Assembly: GCA_001513185.1 (NCBI GenBank) | Contig: LFST01000046.1 | Location: 82,161 to 146,160 of the forward strand | DNA: 64,000 nucleotides | Reading direction: 5' to 3' | Origin: Candidatus Fermentithermobacillaceae bacterium DTU015 | GTDB lineage: Bacteria; Bacillota; Sulfobacillia; Fermentithermobacillales; Fermentithermobacillaceae | Shown: piece by piece, positions 13,452-54,480 of the stretch | Numbering within the stretch: the first letter of the stretch is position 1 | Layout of the letters: every line of letters begins with the position of its first letter | Made by a program: the position numbers and the translations under genes | The notes under the pieces: model-generated | Databases searched by the model: none | What the model saw: the letters and a program-made list of their open reading frames with translations, nothing else | What the model was told of the DNA's origin: nothing

Positions 13452-13509
13452 GCAGCTTAGACGCCTGATTTCGTGTTTGCCGGGTGTCTAAGCTGCTTGT
13501 TCTCTCTGG
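13452..13509 (+). terminator. Hairpin (11-bp stem GCAGCTTAGAC/GTCTAAGCTGC, 23-nt loop) plus T-rich tail
   Basis: Perfect inverted repeat read directly from the sequence 10 nt after the stop of the 453-aa gene. The loop is long, so it could instead be an attenuator. Confidence 0.4.
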
Positions 13510-13585
13510 TGGCATTATTAGGTTGCAATGACTTGGTTGAAATATTGTAAAATAGAGACAATGCTATCCGCTGGGAGGTGAATAG

Positions 13586-13981
13586 ATGCTTAATTTCCGT
13601 GAACCCATTGATGAGAAGCGGCGGGACGAGTTGCTGGATGCGATAGCGAAGAAGATTCAACAATTCGGGATGACGGTACCTGCGATTTTCTTTTTGGAGA
13701 TGCACAAGCCCTTTAGCTATATTGGCGGACAGATTATGCACTTTTTCTCTCCGATTGTCGGGGTGTTCTTTGAGACTTTCGAAGATTACGCTTACTTCTT
13801 TGATGACAGGAAAAACGTAGAACTCTTGATCCAGAGGCTTGAAGCGATTGCCATGGAAGAAGAGGAAGAAAGACGCAAGCAGAAAGAGATGAAGAAAGCC
13901 GGAAAACAGAAGAAAGCACAGACGACCATGCTGGATGAAGCACTTAAGATGGGGTCGCAAGACACCAAGTCAGAAAAATGA
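13586..13981 (+). CDS. Small hypothetical protein with hydrophobic core and Glu/Lys-rich tail (131 aa)
   Basis: GGGAGGTG RBS 6 nt upstream of the ATG. TVPAIFFLEMHKPFSYIGGQIMHFFSPIVGVFF hydrophobic segment and EEEEERRKQKEMKKAGKQKK tail. It sits between the two module copies. Confidence 0.5.
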   Translation: MLNFREPIDEKRRDELLDAIAKKIQQFGMTVPAIFFLEMHKPFSYIGGQIMHFFSPIVGVFFETFEDYAYFFDDRKNVELLIQRLEAIAMEEEEERRKQKEMKKAGKQKKAQTTMLDEALKMGSQDTKSEK

Positions 13982-47693: not shown

Positions 47694-48416
47694 ATGGCTC
47701 GAAAACAAGATGTGATCTTTAAGGGCAGCAAAGACGGCCTGCGCCTTATATTCAATGACCAGCAGGATTACGAGATATTAAAAGAGAAACTTAAGGCTCA
47801 TTTGCAAAAGGCTGAGTTGTTCTTCCAAGGTGCCGATGTGGTACTGGATATCGGAAATCTCGAGTTTTCCATCGATCAGATCCTGGAGATCCAGAACATA
47901 CTTGCGTTTCCCCATGGATTGCGGCTTAGGAAGGTTATACACGGCGGCAAGGAGCCCAGGCCGGTAGCGAAAACTGTCGATAAGCAAAGGACATTGGAAC
48001 CGGAGAAGCGAAACATAGATTACAAGCAGCAAGTTGTCGAAAATTGGGCCCGGGCGCCAAAGACTCCGGATACTTTCCTGTACAAAGGAACGCTAAGGTC
48101 CGGACAGCGCATCACTCATGACGGCAATGTGGTGATTGTGGGTGATGTCAACCCAGGTGCTGAGGTACGGGCTACAGGGGACATAATCGTAATGGGTAAC
48201 CTCAGAGGGCTTGCCCACGCCGGTGCAGGGGGCGCTACCGACGTGGTGATAGTGGCTTTCAAGCTGGAGCCTACGCAGATAAGGATCGGGGACGTAATCG
48301 GGAGGCCCCCCGAAGGGGAACTGGGCGCTCCAAGGGAACCTGAAGTTGCCAGGCTCAAAGACGGCGTGATCTTGGTTGAACCCTTAGATGGAAGTCGTTG
48401 GGAGGGAGAACGGTGA
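47694..48416 (+). CDS. minC: Septum site-determining protein MinC
   Basis: C-terminal beta-helix repeats (GNVVIVGDVNPGAEVRATGDIIVMGNLRG). Confidence 0.8.
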   Translation: MARKQDVIFKGSKDGLRLIFNDQQDYEILKEKLKAHLQKAELFFQGADVVLDIGNLEFSIDQILEIQNILAFPHGLRLRKVIHGGKEPRPVAKTVDKQRTLEPEKRNIDYKQQVVENWARAPKTPDTFLYKGTLRSGQRITHDGNVVIVGDVNPGAEVRATGDIIVMGNLRGLAHAGAGGATDVVIVAFKLEPTQIRIGDVIGRPPEGELGAPREPEVARLKDGVILVEPLDGSRWEGER

Positions 48417-49207
48417 GTGAAGCAATAGTCATAACATCCGGCAAAGGTGGCGTGGGGAAGACCACCGCCTGTGCCAACCTGGGAGTGGCCCTCGCGTCCA
48501 TGGGGCACAAGGTGGTGCTTGTGGATGCGGATATAGGGCTCAGGAACCTGGATGTGGTAATGGGCCTTGAGAACCGTATCGTGTATGACCTTGTTGATGT
48601 AGTCGAAGGATTTTGCAGGCTGAGGCAGGCGTTGATTAAGGACAAGCGGCTTGACGGGCTGTTTTTGCTCCCGGCAGCTCAGACAAAGGACAAAACGTCG
48701 GTAACTCCCGACCAGATGAAGCAGCTGGTTGACCAGTTAAAGGAAGATCACGATTACATACTGGTGGATTGCCCGGCGGGAATTGAACAAGGTTTCAAGA
48801 ATGCCATTGCCGGGGCCGACAGGGCTCTGATTGTGACCACTCCTGAAGTAGCTGCAGTAAGGGATGCTGACAGGATAATCGGCCTGCTAGAGTCATCGGG
48901 GTTTGACGATCCAGGATTGATAGTCAACAGGCTAAAGCCTAAAATGGTGGCCAAAGGCGATATGATGGACATACCTGATATTATAGATATACTGGCCATC
49001 CGCCTTATGGGAGTAGTCCCTGATGATGAGTACATAGTTGTATCTACCAACCGGGGTGAACCGGCGGCGTTGGCGGCTGAGAAATCAAAAGCCGGGCAAG
49101 CGTTTAGGAACATAGCCCGGCGTATCCTGGGAGAGGAAGTGCCTTTCCTGGACCTTAACGAACAGGAAACCTTTTGGGAAAAATTGATCAGGCTAATCAG
49201 GGCTTGA
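48413..49207 (+). CDS. minD: Septum site-determining ATPase MinD
   Basis: Deviant Walker A SGKGGVGKTT. GTG start with a GGGAGGGAGA RBS overlapping the minC stop (GTGA). Confidence 0.9.
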   Translation: MSEAIVITSGKGGVGKTTACANLGVALASMGHKVVLVDADIGLRNLDVVMGLENRIVYDLVDVVEGFCRLRQALIKDKRLDGLFLLPAAQTKDKTSVTPDQMKQLVDQLKEDHDYILVDCPAGIEQGFKNAIAGADRALIVTTPEVAAVRDADRIIGLLESSGFDDPGLIVNRLKPKMVAKGDMMDIPDIIDILAIRLMGVVPDDEYIVVSTNRGEPAALAAEKSKAGQAFRNIARRILGEEVPFLDLNEQETFWEKLIRLIRA

Positions 49208-49223
49208 CGAAGGGGGTATAGGC

Positions 49224-49487
49224 TTGTTTGGATGGTTTGGCAGGAAAGAGCAGTCTAAGGATGTAGCCAGAGACAGGCTCAAGCTGGTGCTCATGCAAGA
49301 CAGGATGGCCCTTGCCCCCCATACGATGGAACAGATGAAAGATGCCGTGATAATGGCGATCTCCCAATTTGTTGAGATAGACGAAAAAGGGCTTGAATTT
49401 GAGTGGAAAGGCAATGAGAGGAGCAAAGCCTTGGTTGCCAACATACCTGTGAGATCCGTAAGAAGGAGGGTTAAGACCAACGATTGA
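49224..49487 (+). CDS. minE: Cell division topological specificity factor MinE
   Basis: 87 aa, MFGWFGRKEQSKDVARDRLKLVL N-terminus. Confidence 0.8.
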   Translation: MFGWFGRKEQSKDVARDRLKLVLMQDRMALAPHTMEQMKDAVIMAISQFVEIDEKGLEFEWKGNERSKALVANIPVRSVRRRVKTND

Positions 49488-50622
49488 ACTGCCCAACATC
49501 AGGATTGAAACCAGAGCGGTACGGCGCATAGACTTCTGGCTCTTAGGCGCGGTACTGTTTCTTGAAATCCTGTCGCTTCCACTTATAGACAGTGCTACCC
49601 ATTCAACCGGCGGACATTATTACCTCAAGCGGCAGCTGCTTTTGGTAGTATTGTCTTTGTTGATGATGGGAGTGGCTACCTTCATCGACTACCGCGATCT
49701 GGTATGGTTGTCTCCGTGGATACTAGGTGTCAACACATTGCTCCTGGTGGCCGTGCTGTTTGTCGGCAGAACCGCAGGTGGTTCCACCCGCTGGATTTCA
49801 CTAGGGTTTTTTGACCTGCAACCTTCAGAGTTGTTCAAGCTTACAGCCATATTGTTCGCCACCAGGGTGTTGTGTTCCCTGGACAGGCCGGTTGATTCCA
49901 TCTTTTCGATAGTGGCATTTTACTCGTGGCTGGCAGTTCCGGCGTTCTTGATCCTCAAACAACCTGACCTTGGTACCACCTTGGTGATTATCGCCATCGT
50001 CACAGGTATGCTGTATTTTGCAGGCACTCCCGCCAAATCAATATTCAGCTTGGTCCTGGTGGGCATAATCATAGTGGGGCTCCTGTTGTGGCTTTATCTG
50101 TACGTGGGTGTACCCTTGCCCATAGAAGAGCACTGGATCGACCGGCTGGTGACTGGGTTCAACCCGGAAAAGGATCCCTTGGGCAAGGGCTATCAGGTGC
50201 TCCAATCCAAGATAGCCATAGGTTCGGGCTCGGTGTGGGGTAAAGGCCTGGGGAAAGGTACCCAGAACCGGCTGGATTTCATACCCCACCAGGAGACAGA
50301 CTTTATCTTCTCAGTGGTCGGCGAGGAACTGGGATTTGTGCGCACAACCATAGTGTTGGGCGTGTATGTGCTCATCTTGATTAGGTGTTTGATAGCTGCG
50401 GTTACGTCTGCCGACAAAGAGGGAACGCTAATAGCCGGCGGGGTGCTGAGCATGCTCTTGTTCCAAAGCATGGTCAACATCGGGATGACCATGGGTATCA
50501 TGCCGGTTACAGGTATCCCTCTGCCGTTTCTAAGCTACGGTGGTACCGCGTCGGTAGTGAATGCGTTTGCAATTGGGCTCGTGCTCAATGTAGGCTGGAA
50601 ACGGCACAAGATCTTATTCTGA
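49483..50622 (+). CDS. rodA: Peptidoglycan glycosyltransferase RodA (SEDS family); start codon non-canonical/uncertain
   Basis: SEDS motifs throughout. The conserved N-terminal segment RIDFWLLGAVLFLEILSLPLIDSAT is in frame but upstream of the first ATG/GTG/TTG (49642). The 5' limit was set at the ATT overlapping the minE stop. Confidence 0.7.
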   Translation: MELPNIRIETRAVRRIDFWLLGAVLFLEILSLPLIDSATHSTGGHYYLKRQLLLVVLSLLMMGVATFIDYRDLVWLSPWILGVNTLLLVAVLFVGRTAGGSTRWISLGFFDLQPSELFKLTAILFATRVLCSLDRPVDSIFSIVAFYSWLAVPAFLILKQPDLGTTLVIIAIVTGMLYFAGTPAKSIFSLVLVGIIIVGLLLWLYLYVGVPLPIEEHWIDRLVTGFNPEKDPLGKGYQVLQSKIAIGSGSVWGKGLGKGTQNRLDFIPHQETDFIFSVVGEELGFVRTTIVLGVYVLILIRCLIAAVTSADKEGTLIAGGVLSMLLFQSMVNIGMTMGIMPVTGIPLPFLSYGGTASVVNAFAIGLVLNVGWKRHKILF

Positions 50623-50641
50623 CGAATTTGGGGGTAGCGGA

Positions 50642-51064
50642 GTGCAGGAGATAGGGATGGTGGTCTCAGTCCAGGACCGCTCGGTTACGGTAGAGGTGAA
50701 AAGGAAAGACGCCTGTTCCACGTGTGGGCGGTGCGGCGGCCATTTGGCCCCAGGCCGGGATGTGATGGTCGTGGAAGCCGTGAAGACCGGCAATCCGAAA
50801 CCCGGCGATTTGGTTGTCTTAGAACTCCCGGATGAAGACTACTTGAGGCTTTCGTTCTTGGTATATATGTTACCCCTGCTGTGTTTAGGATTGGGCTATG
50901 CGCTAGGATGGTTGCTGGGCAGGTTCTTGGGTAACCCTTCAGTATGGGGAGCTGTGTTTGCCGCAGGCGGCATGGTAGCTTGTTTCGCTTGGCTCAGGAG
51001 TTACGATGCTGCTTCCAGGAAGACAGGTAAGTATATGCCTGTAGCCAGGCCGCTAGACGGCTGA
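50642..51064 (+). CDS. RseC/MucC-family protein (SoxR-reducing-system/positive sigma-E regulator-like)
   Basis: N-terminal OB-like domain (GMVVSVQDRSVTVEVKRKDACSTCGRCGG) plus two TM helices, the RseC architecture. Confidence 0.55.
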   Translation: MQEIGMVVSVQDRSVTVEVKRKDACSTCGRCGGHLAPGRDVMVVEAVKTGNPKPGDLVVLELPDEDYLRLSFLVYMLPLLCLGLGYALGWLLGRFLGNPSVWGAVFAAGGMVACFAWLRSYDAASRKTGKYMPVARPLDG

Positions 51065-52639
51065 TTCAGTATGCCTGACGGCAGCCTTGGTGCCGGATTT
51101 GACTTTTGGCATGTATCCTTCTTCCGACAGCGCTTCGACCAGAGTCTGATAAGACTCCCTGTCTACCACGATGTATCGCGGGCCTACTTTCTTCTTGAGA
51201 TACGGTTTGATCCTGGGCGACATCATGAGCTCGTCGGCAAGCTCCTTGGAGTCGCATTTTAGGAGGATCACGTCTTCAAACTCTATCCGTCCGTAAGAAG
51301 TACCCCATTGGGATATTGAGTAACTCACGTTCTGGGGGATGGGGATCCTGGAATGCTCCCCGAGAAACTCTTCAATGGTCTGAGGGTGATACCCATGGAG
51401 CATCGCACGGTATACTGAGTCTTTGGACAGCTTGTACACCAGCATCTGGTCGACTTTGACTATGTCTGCAAAACCGTCGATTGTCCATAGAATCTTGGGC
51501 TCCACGGTGCACGGTACCAGTATCTCAAAGTTGGGCTGGACGTAGATGTCGGTGTCAAATCTCTCTTCAGGCCATGGGGCCAGTCCGAACAGGGCCTTGC
51601 CTGTGGGCGTCACCTTGATCATGGTATCATTCCGTGCCTCGCACACTTCAAGTACCCCAAGGTATTCCAGCATGTCTACCAGGTTTTTCTCGACCCTGAG
51701 GTTTAGGCCGTGGGACGAGTGGCTGGTGGACAAGGCTTCCATTTCTTCCATCAGCGCAGATACTGACAGGACGGTATCTTGAGGGCATCTTTCAATCAGC
51801 CATAAAAGCGTCTGGAGATCTGAGTCTTGTTCGATAAATGTTTGTCTCCAGTACTTGTAAAGCTCCTGGCGCCATTGTGAATACGGGACATCCAGCCACT
51901 TGGCGGTTTCAGAACCAAGCCTCAGGGTGTTATTCCGCTCTTCGCACAGACTATGAGATTTGGCGAAAAACAGCAGGAACGCCAGGCGCGGTGGATACCT
52001 TACAGGGAAGAAGGACTCTTCGAGGCTCCGTTCGTCTTCCTCTATGATGACCACCAAGTCATCCTGGCATTTCTTGAACAAAGAGCCTGATTGGGTGATC
52101 CTGACCTCGTTTTTCCTCACATATGATAGGAGCAAGCATATGTGCCTGAGGGGAGCCGCAAAGTCGAACCGGTAACGGGGGGTGAAACGGCCAGGGTCAA
52201 TGCTCGCCCTTTGAAAGATTTCAGACAGGAAAAAGTCTGAAAGCACTTTGCGCAAGTCAGTGGGCACGAAATACTTCTGCCTGTACCCTTCTCTCCTGGT
52301 AAACACAAGGCCCCTGGAGATCAAGCCTTCTATTACCTTGAACCCGTTCCTGCGCCATTTGCGCGAGAGCTGGTTAAGCTTCTGGTGGCATTGTTCCACG
52401 ATTACGCCGCTTCCTCCGCCTGAAATGGTGATCATGCGGAGTGCCAGGATTTCTTCGTCGTTGAGCCCGTTCATGGCGACCAACGCATTGGCAGGGATAA
52501 GCAGGTGGCTTGCGATGAGCTCGGCCAACTTAGGCCCGTAGTCATCTTCAGGGACCTCAGGCAAGGAGATCCCATAGAAGTAAGCCATAGAATTCAGGCG
52601 TTCAGTGGGTAGTGCAGCCAGAGCTTCCCTCAGGTTCAT
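51053..52639 (-). CDS. XPB-helicase-associated partner protein (528 aa, function unknown; possible Bax1-like)
   Basis: ATGA coupling to the XPB gene. No catalytic motif identified by eye. Confidence 0.45.
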   Translation of the reverse strand: MNLREALAALPTERLNSMAYFYGISLPEVPEDDYGPKLAELIASHLLIPANALVAMNGLNDEEILALRMITISGGGSGVIVEQCHQKLNQLSRKWRRNGFKVIEGLISRGLVFTRREGYRQKYFVPTDLRKVLSDFFLSEIFQRASIDPGRFTPRYRFDFAAPLRHICLLLSYVRKNEVRITQSGSLFKKCQDDLVVIIEEDERSLEESFFPVRYPPRLAFLLFFAKSHSLCEERNNTLRLGSETAKWLDVPYSQWRQELYKYWRQTFIEQDSDLQTLLWLIERCPQDTVLSVSALMEEMEALSTSHSSHGLNLRVEKNLVDMLEYLGVLEVCEARNDTMIKVTPTGKALFGLAPWPEERFDTDIYVQPNFEILVPCTVEPKILWTIDGFADIVKVDQMLVYKLSKDSVYRAMLHGYHPQTIEEFLGEHSRIPIPQNVSYSISQWGTSYGRIEFEDVILLKCDSKELADELMMSPRIKPYLKKKVGPRYIVVDRESYQTLVEALSEEGYMPKVKSGTKAAVRHTESAV

Positions 52640-54342
52640 GGACTGTTACTCCTTTTCCACCGTGCAAGGAAATTTTCGCTTTCCCAAATGGTATACTTAT
52701 ATCCTTGCTCCGTCAAAAACAATTGCCGCTTTTGGCTAAACTCCTGATCCTTGGTATTCCGCGTGACTAAGGTGTAAAATGTGGCGCTTTCGCCCTGGGG
52801 CTTGGGGCGCAGAATCCTGCCGAGGCGCTGTGCCTCTTCTTGGCGGGAACCAAAAGTGCCTGACACCTGTATCGCCACACTTGCATCAGGCAGGTCCACT
52901 GCGAAATTGGCCACTTTGGACACCACCAGCACCCGGATTTCGCCTTCCCTGAATTTGGCATAAAGCTCCTCCCTGACATTGTTTGGCGTCTGGCCGTAAA
53001 TCATGGGCGCATCCAGGAGGTCCGATATTTCTTCGAGCTGATCGATATACTGCCCCAACACAAGTATCTGGTCGTCTGTGTGGTGCTCTACGATTGCCTT
53101 TACCAAGGGGAGCTTTTCAGGATTGGTAGCCGCTATCCTGTACTTCTCCCTTTCCCCGGCTGTATGGTATTCAAGCCGTTTGTCCTGAGGAAAATCCACT
53201 CTGATTTCATGGCAATGGGCGGTAGCGATCCAGTTTTGGGCCTCGAGCTCCTTCCAAGGCTTATCGAACTTCTTGGGTCCTATCAAGCTGAATACGTCAT
53301 CTTCCCGGCCGTCTTCCCTGACCAGGGTGGCCGTAAGCCCCAACCTTCTCCTGGCCTGGAGATCTGCGGTGATCCTAAATACCGGCGCAGGCAGAAGGTG
53401 GACTTCGTCGTAGATTATAAGTCCCCAGTTTCTCTTGTTGAACAAATCGAAGTGGGGGTAGATCTCTTCGGAAGTGCCCCGCTTCCTGTAAGTCAGGATT
53501 TGGTATGTGGTGACGGTCACCGGGCCTACTTCCTTTTTTTCCCCGCTGTATTCTTTCACCATATCTTCGGTGAGATTGGTCTTGTCCAAAAGCTCGTTTA
53601 TCCATTGCCTGAGGGCCACCACGTTGGTGGTGAGGATAAGCGTCTGGGCTCCCACAAGTTCCATGACTGCCATGCCCACGATTGTCTTGCCTGCCCCGCA
53701 TGGAAGCACAATCACACCGCTTCCGCCCCGCACGCTGCCACCGGCCCAAAACGCGTCCCTGGCTGCCTCTTGATATGGCCTCAGGCTGAAGGGTTTGCCT
53801 TCCCCGGTTACGTCCAAGAGGAATATGTCGAGAGGATCACCTTCAGTGTAACCTGCCAGGTCTTCGCAAGGATAGCCCATCTTTATGAGGATCTGCTTCA
53901 CCAAGCCCCGCGAGTACGGCTTAATTATCAGCGAGTGTTTGCTTAAGGGTCTTTCAATGTGTGGCTTCATTTTGTCAGACCGCTTTATTTCTTCCATGAT
54001 GAACTCGTCAGAGCAGGTGAGGATCAGGTTCCCGTCCTCATGGGTGAGCTTTACGATGCCGAATTTTTCCATGGTGTCTCTTATGTGCACCACGATATTT
54101 TCCGGCACCGGGTATCTGGAATACCTGCTTAGTTCGTCAATGACCTGTTCGGGGGTGAAGCCGCACGAAGCAGCGTTCCACAAGGATAGCACAGACAGCC
54201 GGTAAGTATGGATGTACTCGGGGCTCTTCACCAAATCGGCAAACCGCATGATGGCATCGCGGGCGTTTTCATATTCGGGATTGTCCACTTCCAGCAATAT
54301 TGTGCCGTCGCTTAATACCGTAGCTGGCAGATTTCTTGACAA
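52636..54342 (-). CDS. XPB/RAD25 (ERCC3)-type SF2 DNA helicase
   Basis: XPB N-terminal damage-recognition-like region (TILLEVDNPEYE, YRLSVLSLWNAASCGFTPEQVIDEL). Walker A VLPCGAGKT, DEVH box and the RED-like motif. The start was moved to the TTG with an AGGAGG RBS (MSRNLPATV). The ORF-track start is at 54396. Confidence 0.8.
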   Translation of the reverse strand: MSRNLPATVLSDGTILLEVDNPEYENARDAIMRFADLVKSPEYIHTYRLSVLSLWNAASCGFTPEQVIDELSRYSRYPVPENIVVHIRDTMEKFGIVKLTHEDGNLILTCSDEFIMEEIKRSDKMKPHIERPLSKHSLIIKPYSRGLVKQILIKMGYPCEDLAGYTEGDPLDIFLLDVTGEGKPFSLRPYQEAARDAFWAGGSVRGGSGVIVLPCGAGKTIVGMAVMELVGAQTLILTTNVVALRQWINELLDKTNLTEDMVKEYSGEKKEVGPVTVTTYQILTYRKRGTSEEIYPHFDLFNKRNWGLIIYDEVHLLPAPVFRITADLQARRRLGLTATLVREDGREDDVFSLIGPKKFDKPWKELEAQNWIATAHCHEIRVDFPQDKRLEYHTAGEREKYRIAATNPEKLPLVKAIVEHHTDDQILVLGQYIDQLEEISDLLDAPMIYGQTPNNVREELYAKFREGEIRVLVVSKVANFAVDLPDASVAIQVSGTFGSRQEEAQRLGRILRPKPQGESATFYTLVTRNTKDQEFSQKRQLFLTEQGYKYTIWESENFLARWKRSNSP

Positions 54343-54450
54343 AAGTGTGTTCCTCCTGAATCTGTAATGATACCTGCAAAATAGGCAATAACCCAAGATC
54401 TTTATTCTACGTCGGAAGTCTGAGTTCCTGCAACTGGGGCTTTCAAGCTT

Positions 54451-54480
54451 TTGCCCGCCGGTGAGGGTATCCGTTATAAT
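54451..54480 (+). promoter_or_regulatory. Sigma-A-type promoter upstream of pcrA (TTGCCC-N18-TATAAT)
   Basis: Consensus -10 TATAAT at 54475..54480, 38 nt upstream of the pcrA TTG start. Confidence 0.45.

What the first reader, a model, noticed from the sequence alone, without database searches (positions are those of the whole stretch)
51053..54342. Bacterial XPB/RAD25-type helicase translationally coupled to a 528-aa partner protein
The 569-aa protein (after start correction) carries the full XPB architecture. This includes the N-terminal damage-recognition-like region with YRLSVLSLWNAASCGFTPEQVIDEL, Walker A VLPCGAGKT, DEVH and two RecA-like domains. Its stop overlaps the ATG of a large partner gene (ATGA).

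In archaea XPB partners with the nuclease Bax1. The partner here has no nuclease motif obvious by eye but is of similar size.

The pair is on the opposite strand to all flanking genes. It sits between rseC-like and pcrA-ligA, consistent with an inserted repair or defence-like module. XPB-partner pairs in Firmicutes are poorly characterised.
Basis: partly seen in the sequence, partly recalled or inferred. Interest (0 to 1): 0.55.

Follow-up and report, generated by a model that had tools for sequence, protein, structure and literature searches.

The report
Bacterial XPB helicase with p52-like partner
A bacterial XPB repair helicase gene overlaps a partner gene that looks like a relative of p52/Tfb2, the protein that holds and switches on XPB in the eukaryotic factor TFIIH, and not like a Bax1-type nuclease.

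Summary
On the minus strand a 568-aa XPB helicase (52636-54342, TTG start after AGGAGGA) ends in an ATGA overlap with a 528-aa gene (51053-52639). The helicase passes NCBI's XPB equivalog model and has Walker A, DEVH, the RED motif and the eukaryote-type N-terminal domain.

The partner is not Bax1-like. No nuclease family or fold matches it. Its AlphaFold model matches p52/Tfb2 chains of TFIIH over its whole length (Foldseek E 1.9e-14). The N-terminal 355 residues modelled alone also hit p52 first, including the clutch-free p52 crystal structure. Its C-terminal domain is a paralogue of the XPB N-terminal domain, as the p52 "clutch" is, and shares p52's "V-E-T-N-F" strand.

The pair is adjacent in 46 of 77 related loci from several phyla, and 30 of 44 keep the 4-nt overlap. 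It lies in conserved core-genome synteny with normal composition, is absent from phages, and is not in a defence island.

Most likely it is a minimal two-subunit XPB-p52 translocase module. Physical binding and function are inferred, not shown. I found no paper describing a bacterial p52 homologue. The protein scores below Pfam's Tfb2 cut-off, so I call it p52-like, not a curated family member.

The parts
52636..54342 (-). XPB/ERCC3/Rad25-type SF2 helicase gene, 568 aa, TTG start
   Evidence: ORF. NCBIfam NF045503 'DNA repair helicase XPB' 854 bits, cut-off 610. PDB phmmer: yeast Rad25 E 2.7e-84, human XPB about 4e-78, archaeal AfXPB 2e-42. Homologues are 564-569 aa.
54351..54357 (-). Ribosome-binding site AGGAGGA, 8 nt upstream of the TTG start of XPB
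   Evidence: Sequence read directly.
54404..54433 (-). Putative sigma-A-type promoter of the XPB-partner operon (TTGCAG-18 nt-TAGAAT). It is divergent from the pcrA promoter at 54451-54480 (+).
   Evidence: The hexamers are conserved in the intergenic alignment of 10 related loci. The pcrA promoter TTGCCC-18-TATAAT was found by the scan. The XPB promoter itself falls below the scan's threshold, so it is inferred from conservation only.
53962..54318 (-). XPB N-terminal domain (Pfam Helicase_C_3), the counterpart of the p52-binding NTD of eukaryotic XPB
   Evidence: PF13625 E 3e-31. Aligns to yeast Rad25 137-237, i-Evalue 2.9e-11. Coordinates verified.
53320..53790 (-). RecA-like domain 1, with Walker A GAGKT (53683-53697) and DEVH (53398-53409)
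   Evidence: Pfam ResIII E 1.1e-17. Motifs verified by translation.
53311..53319 (-). RED motif (R342-E343-D344)
   Evidence: Aligns with human XPB R472-E473-D474 in a near gap-free alignment. Invariant in 10 paired sequences. Verified by translation.
52684..53247 (-). RecA-like domain 2 (ERCC3_RAD25_C)
   Evidence: PF16203 E 1.7e-45. Aligned to human XPB 444-689.
52636..52639 (-). ATGA overlap of the XPB stop codon and the partner start codon (translational coupling), with GGAG at 52649-52652
   Evidence: The same 4-nt overlap is present in 30 of 44 related loci, including Desulfosporosinus.
51053..52639 (-). Partner gene, 528 aa: p52/Tfb2-like 'helicase-associated domain' protein
   Evidence: AF2 model pLDDT 87.7. 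The top 22 Foldseek PDB hits are all p52/Tfb2 chains, best E 1.9e-14, with about 530 aligned columns. Profile against PDB: human p52 E 2e-3. Pfam Tfb2 is matched by 36 of 38 family members at E<=1, best 1.8e-7.
51575..52639 (-). Partner residues 1-355: multi-winged-helix array resembling p52 NTD+MD1
   Evidence: Modelled alone, pLDDT 90.3 and pTM 0.86. With Foldseek, 12 of 13 hits at E<=1e-3 are p52/Tfb2, best 2.9e-6. They include 6tru (p52 1-321, no clutch) at E 1e-4 with TM 0.38-0.41. No p52 signal by sequence.
51194..51544 (-). Partner residues 366-482: clutch/MD2-like domain (Pfam Helicase_C_3), a paralogue of the XPB NTD. It includes the V367-Q-P-N370-F371 strand at 51524-51541.
   Evidence: PF13625 E 3.1e-23. 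BLASTP against the window's own XPB NTD: 29% identity, E 2e-12. With the sub-profile, Tfb2/p52 (E 1.3e-3) rank above XPB (about 1e-2), and VQxNF aligns with yeast Tfb2 V341-E-T-N-F345.
51104..51274 (-). Partner residues 456-512: C-terminal beta-alpha-beta-beta-alpha module, in the position of the p52 CTD (the p8-binding module in TFIIH)
   Evidence: Secondary structure of the model. Highly conserved columns L467 E470 P487 L504 G508 Y509 P511. Equivalence to the p52 CTD is inferred only from position and from the full-length Foldseek alignment.

Best explanation
The two genes encode a minimal, two-subunit bacterial counterpart of the XPB-p52 submodule of TFIIH.

XPB is the ATP-driven DNA translocase/helicase. 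The partner is a p52/Tfb2-like scaffold and regulator.

By analogy with TFIIH, the partner's clutch domain would pair with the homologous XPB N-terminal domain as a pseudo-symmetric heterodimer. Its C-terminal module would pack against RecA2 and put the two RecA domains into an ATPase-competent state. Its N-terminal winged-helix array would tether the motor to DNA or to another protein.

The genes are made from one operon with coupled translation, as expected for a stoichiometric complex. The complex would act in chromosomal DNA repair or transcription-associated DNA opening, not in phage defence.

Shown here: the identity of XPB, the p52-like fold and clutch paralogy of the partner, the operon structure, and conserved linkage across phyla.

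Inferred: physical binding, ATPase regulation and the cellular role.
For: XPB identity:
-.

Partner resembles p52:
- Full-length Foldseek: top 22 hits are all p52/Tfb2, best E 1.9e-14.
- The N-terminal 355 aa modelled alone still give p52 as the best hit, including 6tru, which lacks the clutch.
- Kappenberger et al. (PMC7708078) state that the p52 NTD, MD1 and MD2 have no other structural homologues.
- The clutch domain is a paralogue of the XPB NTD, E 2e-12. This mirrors the p52 clutch/XPB NTD relation in human TFIIH (PMC6422496).
- The clutch sub-profile ranks Tfb2/p52 above XPB and aligns VQxNF with Tfb2 VETNF. The ctp52 residues of the MD2 sheet whose mutation was tested for XPB ATPase activation include E359, R363 and Y365.
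- The Tfb2 Pfam model is hit by 36 of 38 family members.

Linkage to XPB:
- XPB lies directly upstream in 46 of 77 loci: Bacillota including Desulfosporosinus, Tepidibacillus and Limnochordia, plus Latescibacterota and Myxococcota.
- The pair is also adjacent in Paenibacillus.
- It is linked in Streptomyces and Nonomuraea, with the gene order reversed.
- The 4-nt overlap occurs in 30 of 44 loci.

Conservation pattern:
- 21 of 35 invariant columns lie in residues 366-511, the predicted XPB-contacting part.
- XPB itself stays about 60% identical across phyla.

Experimental hint:
- In an M. tuberculosis Tn-seq, ercc3/Rv0861c (LFC -1.45) and the upstream gene Rv0862c (LFC -1.68) are both rifampin-hypersusceptible. 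Their neighbours are not (PMC10534295 supplement).
Against: - Binding is therefore not shown even in silico.
- TM-scores to p52 are low (0.24-0.41). This is expected for flexible multi-domain chains but weak on its own.
- The N-terminal 290 residues, and separately residues 280-395, show no sequence similarity to p52. They show only generic winged-helix similarity to STN1 and MarR.
- The window protein scores 12.6 bits on Pfam Tfb2 against a cut-off of 34.5.
- No p8/Tfb5-like gene is evident in the operon. The other core TFIIH subunits that p52's N-terminus binds (p34, p62) were not looked for here and are reported as not found in bacteria.
- In most of the Chloroflexota loci (mainly Chloroflexia) examined, a longer form of the partner has no XPB within 8 kb.
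- I did not verify by sequence that Rv0862c is a member of this family. A transposon in it could also be polar on ercc3.
Confidence: 0.7

Rival explanations
1. The partner is a bacterial winged-helix adaptor or regulator that acquired a copy of the XPB N-terminal domain by duplication. Its overall likeness to p52 would be convergent, because tandem winged helices are common. It may still bind XPB through the duplicated domain, but it would not be a p52 homologue and need not regulate the ATPase in the same way.
For: - p52-specific signal at sequence level is weak: E about 1e-3 and confined to the clutch.
- The N-terminal profiles hit only generic winged-helix proteins.
- TM-scores are 0.24-0.41.
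- After p52, the next Foldseek hits are other tandem-winged-helix proteins: STK19, RPC62 and Dcc1.
- The protein is below the Pfam Tfb2 cut-off.
Against: - p52 chains take 12 of 13 significant hits for the N-terminal part alone and all of the top 22 for the full length.
- The order of the modules (winged-helix array, clutch, small C-terminal module) and their sizes match p52.
- The clutch sub-profile prefers Tfb2/p52 over XPB and shares the VETNF-type strand.
Confidence: 0.2
2. One reading: the partner is a functional analogue of archaeal Bax1, a nuclease that cuts the DNA opened by XPB.
For: The only support is the analogy of a partner gene of similar size next to XPB, as in archaea (PMC7672443 and PMC13024598).
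Against: - No nuclease or Bax1 (DUF790) family appears at E<=1 in any of 38 family members.
- There is no sequence hit to any PDB chain at E<=10 with the single sequence.
- There is no nuclease among the top 50 Foldseek hits, while XPB-Bax1 complexes are in the library.
- The fold is all winged helix plus clutch.
Confidence: 0.02
3. The pair is a horizontally inserted defence or mobile-element module, consisting of a helicase plus a sensor.
For: - The pair is on the opposite strand to its neighbours.
- XPB gives weak generic helicase hits to PADLOC models such as PbeA.
- Long forms of the partner carry a WYL domain, which also occurs in defence regulators.
Against: - The same flanks (minD-rodA-rseC and pcrA-ligA) occur in the related loci with enough flank, where partner identity ranges from 84% down to 56%.
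- GC, GC3 and codon usage fall within the window's normal range.
- The partner has no PADLOC hit.
- There are 0 hits in 50,697 phage records and only 2 in 72,556 plasmid records, both on chromosome-like replicons.
- The flanks in other phyla are housekeeping or transport genes with no conserved third gene.
Confidence: 0.05

Closest known systems
XPB-p52(-p8) submodule of eukaryotic TFIIH (human XPB/GTF2H4/GTF2H5; yeast Ssl2/Tfb2/Tfb5)
   Same: - The helicase has the same domain order: NTD, RecA1 with the RED motif, then RecA2. It is more similar to yeast and human XPB (287 and 266 bits) than to archaeal XPB (148 bits).
- The partner has the same module order as p52: a winged-helix NTD/MD1-like array, a clutch that is a paralogue of the XPB NTD, and a small C-terminal module.
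- p52 recruits XPB through a pseudo-symmetric NTD-clutch dimer and activates its ATPase (PMC6422496, PMC7708078).
   Different: - The bacterial version is two genes in one bacterial operon with overlapping stop and start codons.
- No p8/Tfb5 gene is evident.
- p34, p44, p62 and XPD-MAT1, which dock on p52 and XPB in TFIIH, were not looked for here, and p44 is reported as not found in bacteria. The N-terminal array must therefore bind something else.
- XPB lacks the eukaryotic C-terminal extension.
- Sequence similarity of the partner to p52 is marginal and below Pfam's Tfb2 cut-off.
- Actinomycetota and Chloroflexota versions add a C-terminal WYL domain.
Archaeal XPB-Bax1 helicase-nuclease complex
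   Same: An XPB-family helicase encoded next to a dedicated partner of about 500 aa that is thought to form a complex with it.
   Different: - Bax1 is a nuclease that binds the ThM/HD2 region of XPB through its N-terminal domain (PMC13024598).
- The partner here has no nuclease family or fold.
- The partner carries a copy of the XPB NTD. The XPBs crystallised with Bax1 (A. fulgidus, S. tokodaii) align with this helicase only from about residue 185 onward, and A. fulgidus XPB is reported to lack that NTD (PMC3353954).
Mycobacterial XPB (Rv0861c/Ercc3), the biochemically studied bacterial XPB
   Same: - It belongs to the same bacterial XPB family, with an NTD, the RED motif and no C-terminal extension.
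- It is a 3'->5' helicase with DNA-dependent ATPase and ATP-independent strand annealing (PMC3353954).
- It is encoded next to an uncharacterised upstream gene (Rv0862c). This parallels the partner-then-XPB order seen in Streptomyces and Nonomuraea.
   Different: - It was studied as an isolated protein.
- The authors stated that p52 and p44 homologues had not been found in bacteria.
- Gene order is reversed relative to this window.
- Membership of Rv0862c in the partner family was not verified here.

Membership tests
XPB/ERCC3/Rad25 helicase (NCBIfam NF045503; Pfam ERCC3_RAD25_C) | Scores above the curated equivalog cut-off over the full length | tested here: met
   854.1 bits against a cut-off of 610, with profile positions 3-547 of 548 matched.
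XPB/ERCC3/Rad25 helicase (NCBIfam NF045503; Pfam ERCC3_RAD25_C) | SF2 motifs (Walker A GxGKT, DExH) and the XPB-specific RED motif | tested here: met
   GAGKT, DEVH and RED were verified by translation. RED aligns with human R472-E473-D474.
XPB/ERCC3/Rad25 helicase (NCBIfam NF045503; Pfam ERCC3_RAD25_C) | Thumb-like (ThM) motif in RecA2 | tested here: inconclusive
   The segment between motifs III and IV aligns with human and yeast XPB with no gap in that segment. Balasingham et al. consider the archaeal ThM insertion shortened or missing in bacterial and eukaryotic XPB. No structural check was made.
XPB/ERCC3/Rad25 helicase (NCBIfam NF045503; Pfam ERCC3_RAD25_C) | DNA-dependent ATPase and 3'->5' helicase/translocase activity | not testable with these tools
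   Shown only for the M. tuberculosis orthologue in the literature (PMC3353954).
TFIIH subunit p52/Tfb2 (Pfam PF03849 Tfb2) | Scores above Pfam's gathering threshold for Tfb2 | tested here: not met
   The window protein gives 12.6 bits, E 0.067, against a cut-off of 34.5. Of 38 relatives, 36 match at E<=1, best 1.8e-7. I therefore describe it as p52-like and do not file it as a curated Tfb2 family member.
TFIIH subunit p52/Tfb2 (Pfam PF03849 Tfb2) | Clutch/MD2 domain homologous to the XPB N-terminal domain | tested here: met
   PF13625 E 3.1e-23. BLASTP to the window's own XPB NTD, E 2e-12. The profile hits human p52 223-406 at E 2e-3. The clutch sub-profile ranks Tfb2/p52 above XPB and aligns VQxNF with VETNF.
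TFIIH subunit p52/Tfb2 (Pfam PF03849 Tfb2) | N-terminal NTD+MD1 fold | tested here: met
   In structure only. Residues 1-355 modelled alone (pLDDT 90.3) give p52/Tfb2 as 12 of 13 hits at E<=1e-3, including 6tru (p52 1-321) at E 1e-4. Caveats: TM is 0.26-0.41, and there is no sequence signal.
TFIIH subunit p52/Tfb2 (Pfam PF03849 Tfb2) | C-terminal domain that dimerises with p8/Tfb5, and presence of a p8 gene | not tested
   A beta-alpha-beta-beta-alpha module sits in the right position. No residue-level comparison was made and no search for a p8-like ORF. None is present inside the operon, because the partner gene ends convergent with rseC.
TFIIH subunit p52/Tfb2 (Pfam PF03849 Tfb2) | Binds XPB and stimulates its ATPase | not testable with these tools
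This needs biochemistry.
Bax1 nuclease (archaeal XPB partner) | Bax1/DUF790 domain with a nuclease active site | tested here: not met
   No such Pfam hit at E<=1 in 38 members. No PDB sequence hit. No Bax1 chain among the top 50 Foldseek hits listed, although 6p66, 6p4f and 6p4o are in the library.
Known anti-phage defence systems (PADLOC-DB) | A component matches a defence-system model and sits in a defence or mobile-element context | tested here: not met
   The partner has 0 families. XPB gives only generic helicase matches. The genome context is conserved core genome. The family is absent from phages and true plasmids.

The most novel reading that the evidence does not exclude
Bacteria widely carry an XPB-p52 heterodimer, making this a prokaryotic version of the translocase core of TFIIH. 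The eukaryotic XPB-p52 pair would then have entered the eukaryotic lineage as a ready-made two-gene bacterial module, rather than being assembled around an archaeal XPB. In bacteria the complex would work on transcription-associated DNA, for example at stalled or inhibited RNA polymerase. That would explain why both M. tuberculosis genes confer rifampin tolerance.
Probability: 0.25. Interest if true: 0.85.

Novelty: new variant of a known kind. Interest (0 to 1): 0.62.

Why it matters
The role of bacterial XPB has been open since the 1990s, and the enzyme has been studied only as an isolated protein.

Current literature says that TFIIH subunits other than the helicases are missing outside eukaryotes. 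A 2012 paper states that p52 and p44 homologues had not been found in bacteria. A 2026 perspective states the same for Archaea.

A conserved, operon-encoded p52-like partner changes the experiment to be done:
- Purify the pair rather than XPB alone.
- Test for ATPase activation.
- Solve a small, tractable model of the XPB-p52 "clutch", which is mutated in human XP and TTD.

Cultured hosts are available: Paenibacillus, Streptomyces and mycobacteria.

The finding also bears on where the TFIIH translocase module came from. The partner family is large: 465 clusters at E<=1e-30 and 2,667 at E<=1e-10 among 1.84 billion representatives. RefSeq names its members only 'helicase-associated domain-containing protein'.

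Tried and rejected
1. Complex prediction. I joined XPB and the partner with a Gly-Ser linker in a 10-row paired alignment. No interface could be modelled.

2. Natural fusions as Rosetta-stone evidence. My script reported a 1098-aa fusion in L004. Inspection showed a TAG stop, 3 nt, then ATG in the same frame, so this was an artefact. The L069/P0063 'fusion' is a decaying locus with an internal stop and a deletion. I make no fusion claim.

3. Sequence-only tests of the N-terminal part. The profile of residues 1-290 and the profile of residues 280-395 found only generic winged-helix proteins in the PDB.

4. Single-sequence search of the partner against the PDB. It found nothing at E<=10.

5. Verification that M. 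tuberculosis Rv0862c belongs to the partner family. My last protein search, with the Streptomyces homologue, listed only Streptomyces proteins. The cluster look-up of long forms returned Chloroflexota names. This remains unverified.

6. A conserved third gene, such as a nuclease, p8 or XPD. Flanks in Tepidibacillus, Desulfosporosinus, Latescibacterota, Myxococcota, Streptomyces and Paenibacillus differ.

7. A LexA/Cheo box in the XPB-pcrA intergenic region. None was found.

8. Literature. Nine searches found no description of a bacterial p52/Tfb2 homologue. The library lacks most subscription journals, so absence is not proof.

Full report
**Observation**

The region holds two minus-strand ORFs.
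- The helicase ORF can be read from TTG at 54396 (586 aa). The TTG at 54342 has an AGGAGGA 8 nt upstream and gives 568 aa. That is the length of its closest relatives.
- Its TGA stop overlaps the ATG of a 528-aa ORF (51053-52639) as ATGA, with a GGAG 9 nt upstream.
- Walker A (GAGKT), DEVH and RED translate at the expected coordinates.
- The flanking genes are on the plus strand. Upstream in window coordinates are minC/minD/minE-like ORFs, a RodA/FtsW-like ORF and an RseC_MucC protein. Downstream are a PcrA/UvrD helicase and an NAD-dependent-ligase-like ORF.

**The helicase**

- It passes NCBI's equivalog model for 'DNA repair helicase XPB' (854 bits, cut-off 610).
- It carries Pfam Helicase_C_3, ResIII and ERCC3_RAD25_C.
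- Against solved structures it is closer to yeast Rad25 (E 2.7e-84) and human XPB (about 4e-78) than to archaeal XPB (2e-42).
- Its first 110 or so residues align with Rad25 137-237. This is the N-terminal domain (NTD) that binds p52 in TFIIH.
- RED aligns with human R472-E473-D474.
- The region where the thumb motif lies aligns without gaps to the eukaryotic proteins. Whether that counts as a ThM is a matter of definition.

**The partner**

By sequence:
- It has one Pfam domain, Helicase_C_3, at residues 366-482. This is the same family as the XPB NTD.
- BLASTP of the window's XPB NTD against the partner's C-terminal part gives 29% identity, E 2e-12.
- There is no nuclease family and no PADLOC family.
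- A profile of 38 homologues hits the XPB NTD (E 3e-4) and human p52/GTF2H4 residues 223-406 (E 2e-3) in the PDB.
- Pfam Tfb2 is matched by 36 of 38 members at E<=1, best 1.8e-7. The window protein scores only 12.6 bits against a cut-off of 34.5.
- A sub-profile of residues 356-436 ranks Tfb2/p52 (E 1.3e-3) above XPB (about 1e-2). It aligns the invariant V-Q-x-N-F strand with yeast Tfb2 V341-E-T-N-F345.

By structure:
- The AlphaFold model (pLDDT 87.7, pTM 0.78) gives p52/Tfb2 chains as its top 22 Foldseek hits in the PDB. The best E is 1.9e-14, over about 530 aligned columns. XPB NTD hits come only after these.
- The shared clutch could drive that result, so I modelled residues 1-355 alone (pLDDT 90.3). 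Of 13 hits at E<=1e-3, 12 are p52/Tfb2 (best 2.9e-6). They include 6tru at E 1e-4, the crystal structure of p52 residues 1-321 (NTD+MD1), which has no clutch.
- The authors of that structure noted that the p52 NTD, MD1 and MD2 had no known structural homologues.

Caveats:
- TM-scores are low (0.24-0.41). I attribute this to flexible multi-domain chains, but it keeps convergence of winged-helix arrays alive as a rival.
- Sequence profiles of the N-terminal part find only generic winged-helix proteins.

**Linkage and context**

A scan of one genome per species returned 77 loci.
- XPB lies directly upstream of the partner on the same strand in 46 of them. These cover all Candidatus Fermentithermobacillaceae-type loci that have upstream sequence, plus Tepidibacillus, Desulfosporosinus, Limnochordia, Latescibacterota and Myxococcota.
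- The 4-nt overlap is kept in 30 of 44 evaluated loci.
- In Paenibacillus cellulosilyticus, RefSeq annotates 'DNA repair helicase XPB' overlapping a 'helicase-associated domain-containing protein'.
- In Streptomyces and Nonomuraea the order is partner first, then XPB 1-4 kb downstream. The partner there carries a C-terminal WYL domain.
- In most of the Chloroflexota loci (mainly Chloroflexia), a 750-800-aa form, in some records named as a WYL protein, has no XPB within 8 kb. Chloroflexota do encode XPB. Genome-level co-occurrence there was not tested.
- No third gene is conserved next to the pair.

Within the window's own family, the neighbours minD-rodA-rseC on one side and pcrA-ligA on the other are the same in the loci with enough flank, where partner identity ranges from 84% down to 56%.
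- GC (0.52 against 0.539 ± 0.023), GC3 and codon usage are ordinary.
- The partner has no match in 50,697 phage records. It has two matches in 72,556 plasmid records, both on chromosome-like replicons.

The 'inserted or defence-like module' idea is therefore not supported.

**Mechanism**

In TFIIH, the p52 clutch and the XPB NTD have the same fold and form a pseudo-symmetric dimer that recruits XPB (PMC6422496). p52/p8 activates and caps the XPB ATPase. Single substitutions in the clutch sheet abolish that activation (PMC7708078).

The bacterial pair has the same two homologous domains, the same module order in the partner, and coupled translation. Conservation is concentrated in the part of the partner predicted to touch XPB, with 21 of 35 invariant columns in residues 366-511.

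I therefore infer three things:
- A stoichiometric XPB-partner complex forms, in which the partner licenses the motor.
- The N-terminal winged-helix array targets the motor to DNA or to another protein, because p34 and p62, its partners in TFIIH, are not known in bacteria.
- The WYL domain of the long forms would add a nucleic-acid or ligand input.

None of this is shown directly.

**A hint from experiment**

In a transposon screen of M. tuberculosis, ercc3/Rv0861c and the gene just upstream, Rv0862c, are both rifampin-hypersusceptible in rich broth. Their LFC values are -1.45 and -1.68, with adjusted p of 1e-9 and 1e-11. Their neighbours are not affected, and neither gene scores in the two other supplementary tables, which I take to be the isoniazid screens (PMC10534295 supplement). 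The ercc3 deletion was validated.

The gene order matches the actinobacterial partner-then-XPB arrangement. However, I could not verify by sequence that Rv0862c belongs to the family. A polar effect on ercc3 would also give the same result. It is a lead, not evidence.

**Comparison and novelty**

The closest known system is the XPB-p52(-p8) submodule of TFIIH. The archaeal XPB-Bax1 pair is analogous only in being a helicase with a partner.

The partner fails Pfam's Tfb2 threshold, so I do not file it as a curated Tfb2 member. I claim that it is p52-like in architecture and probably a distant homologue.

Nine literature searches found no description of a bacterial p52. [quoted passage not shown] A 2026 review calls bacterial XPB function elusive. 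A 2026 perspective says the non-helicase TFIIH subunits are absent from Archaea. The library omits most subscription journals, and precomputed Pfam Tfb2 hits on some relatives exist in databases. Someone may therefore have noticed this already.

The window's pair is one ordinary member of a large family: 465 clusters at E<=1e-30. The interest lies in the family-level reading, not in this locus.

**Verdict**

- Best explanation: a bacterial two-gene XPB-p52-like module, confidence about 0.7.
- Interest: 0.62.

Noticed in passing
window 54404-54480 (XPB-pcrA intergenic region): The divergent promoter-like hexamers are conserved in relatives: TTGCAG-18-TAGAAT towards XPB and TTGCCC-18-TATAAT towards pcrA. 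No LexA/Cheo box is present, so the operon does not look SOS-regulated.
   Followed up: partly
L078 6001-11332 (Streptomyces inhibens); L080 (Nonomuraea); clusters of P0258 and P0329 (Chloroflexota): Actinomycetota and Chloroflexota versions of the partner are 730-880 aa. The Streptomyces forms, and at least one Chloroflexota cluster, carry a C-terminal WYL domain. In Streptomyces a zf-CGNR gene sits between the partner and XPB, and the gene order is partner first.
   Followed up: partly
PMC10534295 supplementary file 4 (M. tuberculosis Tn-seq): Rv0861c (ercc3) and the adjacent Rv0862c are both rifampin-hypersusceptible (LFC -1.45 and -1.68), while flanking genes are not. Rifampin targets RNA polymerase, which hints at a transcription-linked role. 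Family membership of Rv0862c and polarity effects were not resolved.
   Followed up: partly
L069 3988-6765 (Desulfosporosinus MAG) / protein P0063: This is a decaying copy of the module. XPB has an internal stop and an internal deletion and is read through into the partner frame. It is annotated in NCBI as one 853-aa 'helicase-related protein'.
   Followed up: yes
protein P0153: An XPB 61% identical to the window's bacterial XPB is labelled as coming from a Candidatus Methanospirareceae archaeon MAG. This is either transfer of the bacterial-type XPB into archaea or bin contamination.
   Followed up: no
L047 9426-9923 (Tepidibacillus) and L079 6987-7808 (Paenibacillus): In both of these members of class Bacilli, the gene just downstream of the partner is a YlbF-family regulator, followed by ylbG in Paenibacillus. 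This is a second, lineage-specific conserved neighbourhood, different from the one in the window.
   Followed up: no
window 13457-13960 (-): A 167-aa minus-strand ORF has atypical composition: GC 0.45, GC3 0.52 and codon-usage distance 0.34, against a window mean of 0.19. It lies in the lowest-GC kilobase of the window. It may be foreign or not a real gene.
   Followed up: no
window 47694-51064 (+): Upstream of the pair is a conserved cell-division/shape block: a MinC-like ORF, MinD, a MinE-like ORF, a RodA/FtsW-family ORF and an RseC_MucC protein. Its stop region (51064) overlaps the 3' end of the partner gene (51053) convergently by 12 nt.
   Followed up: partly
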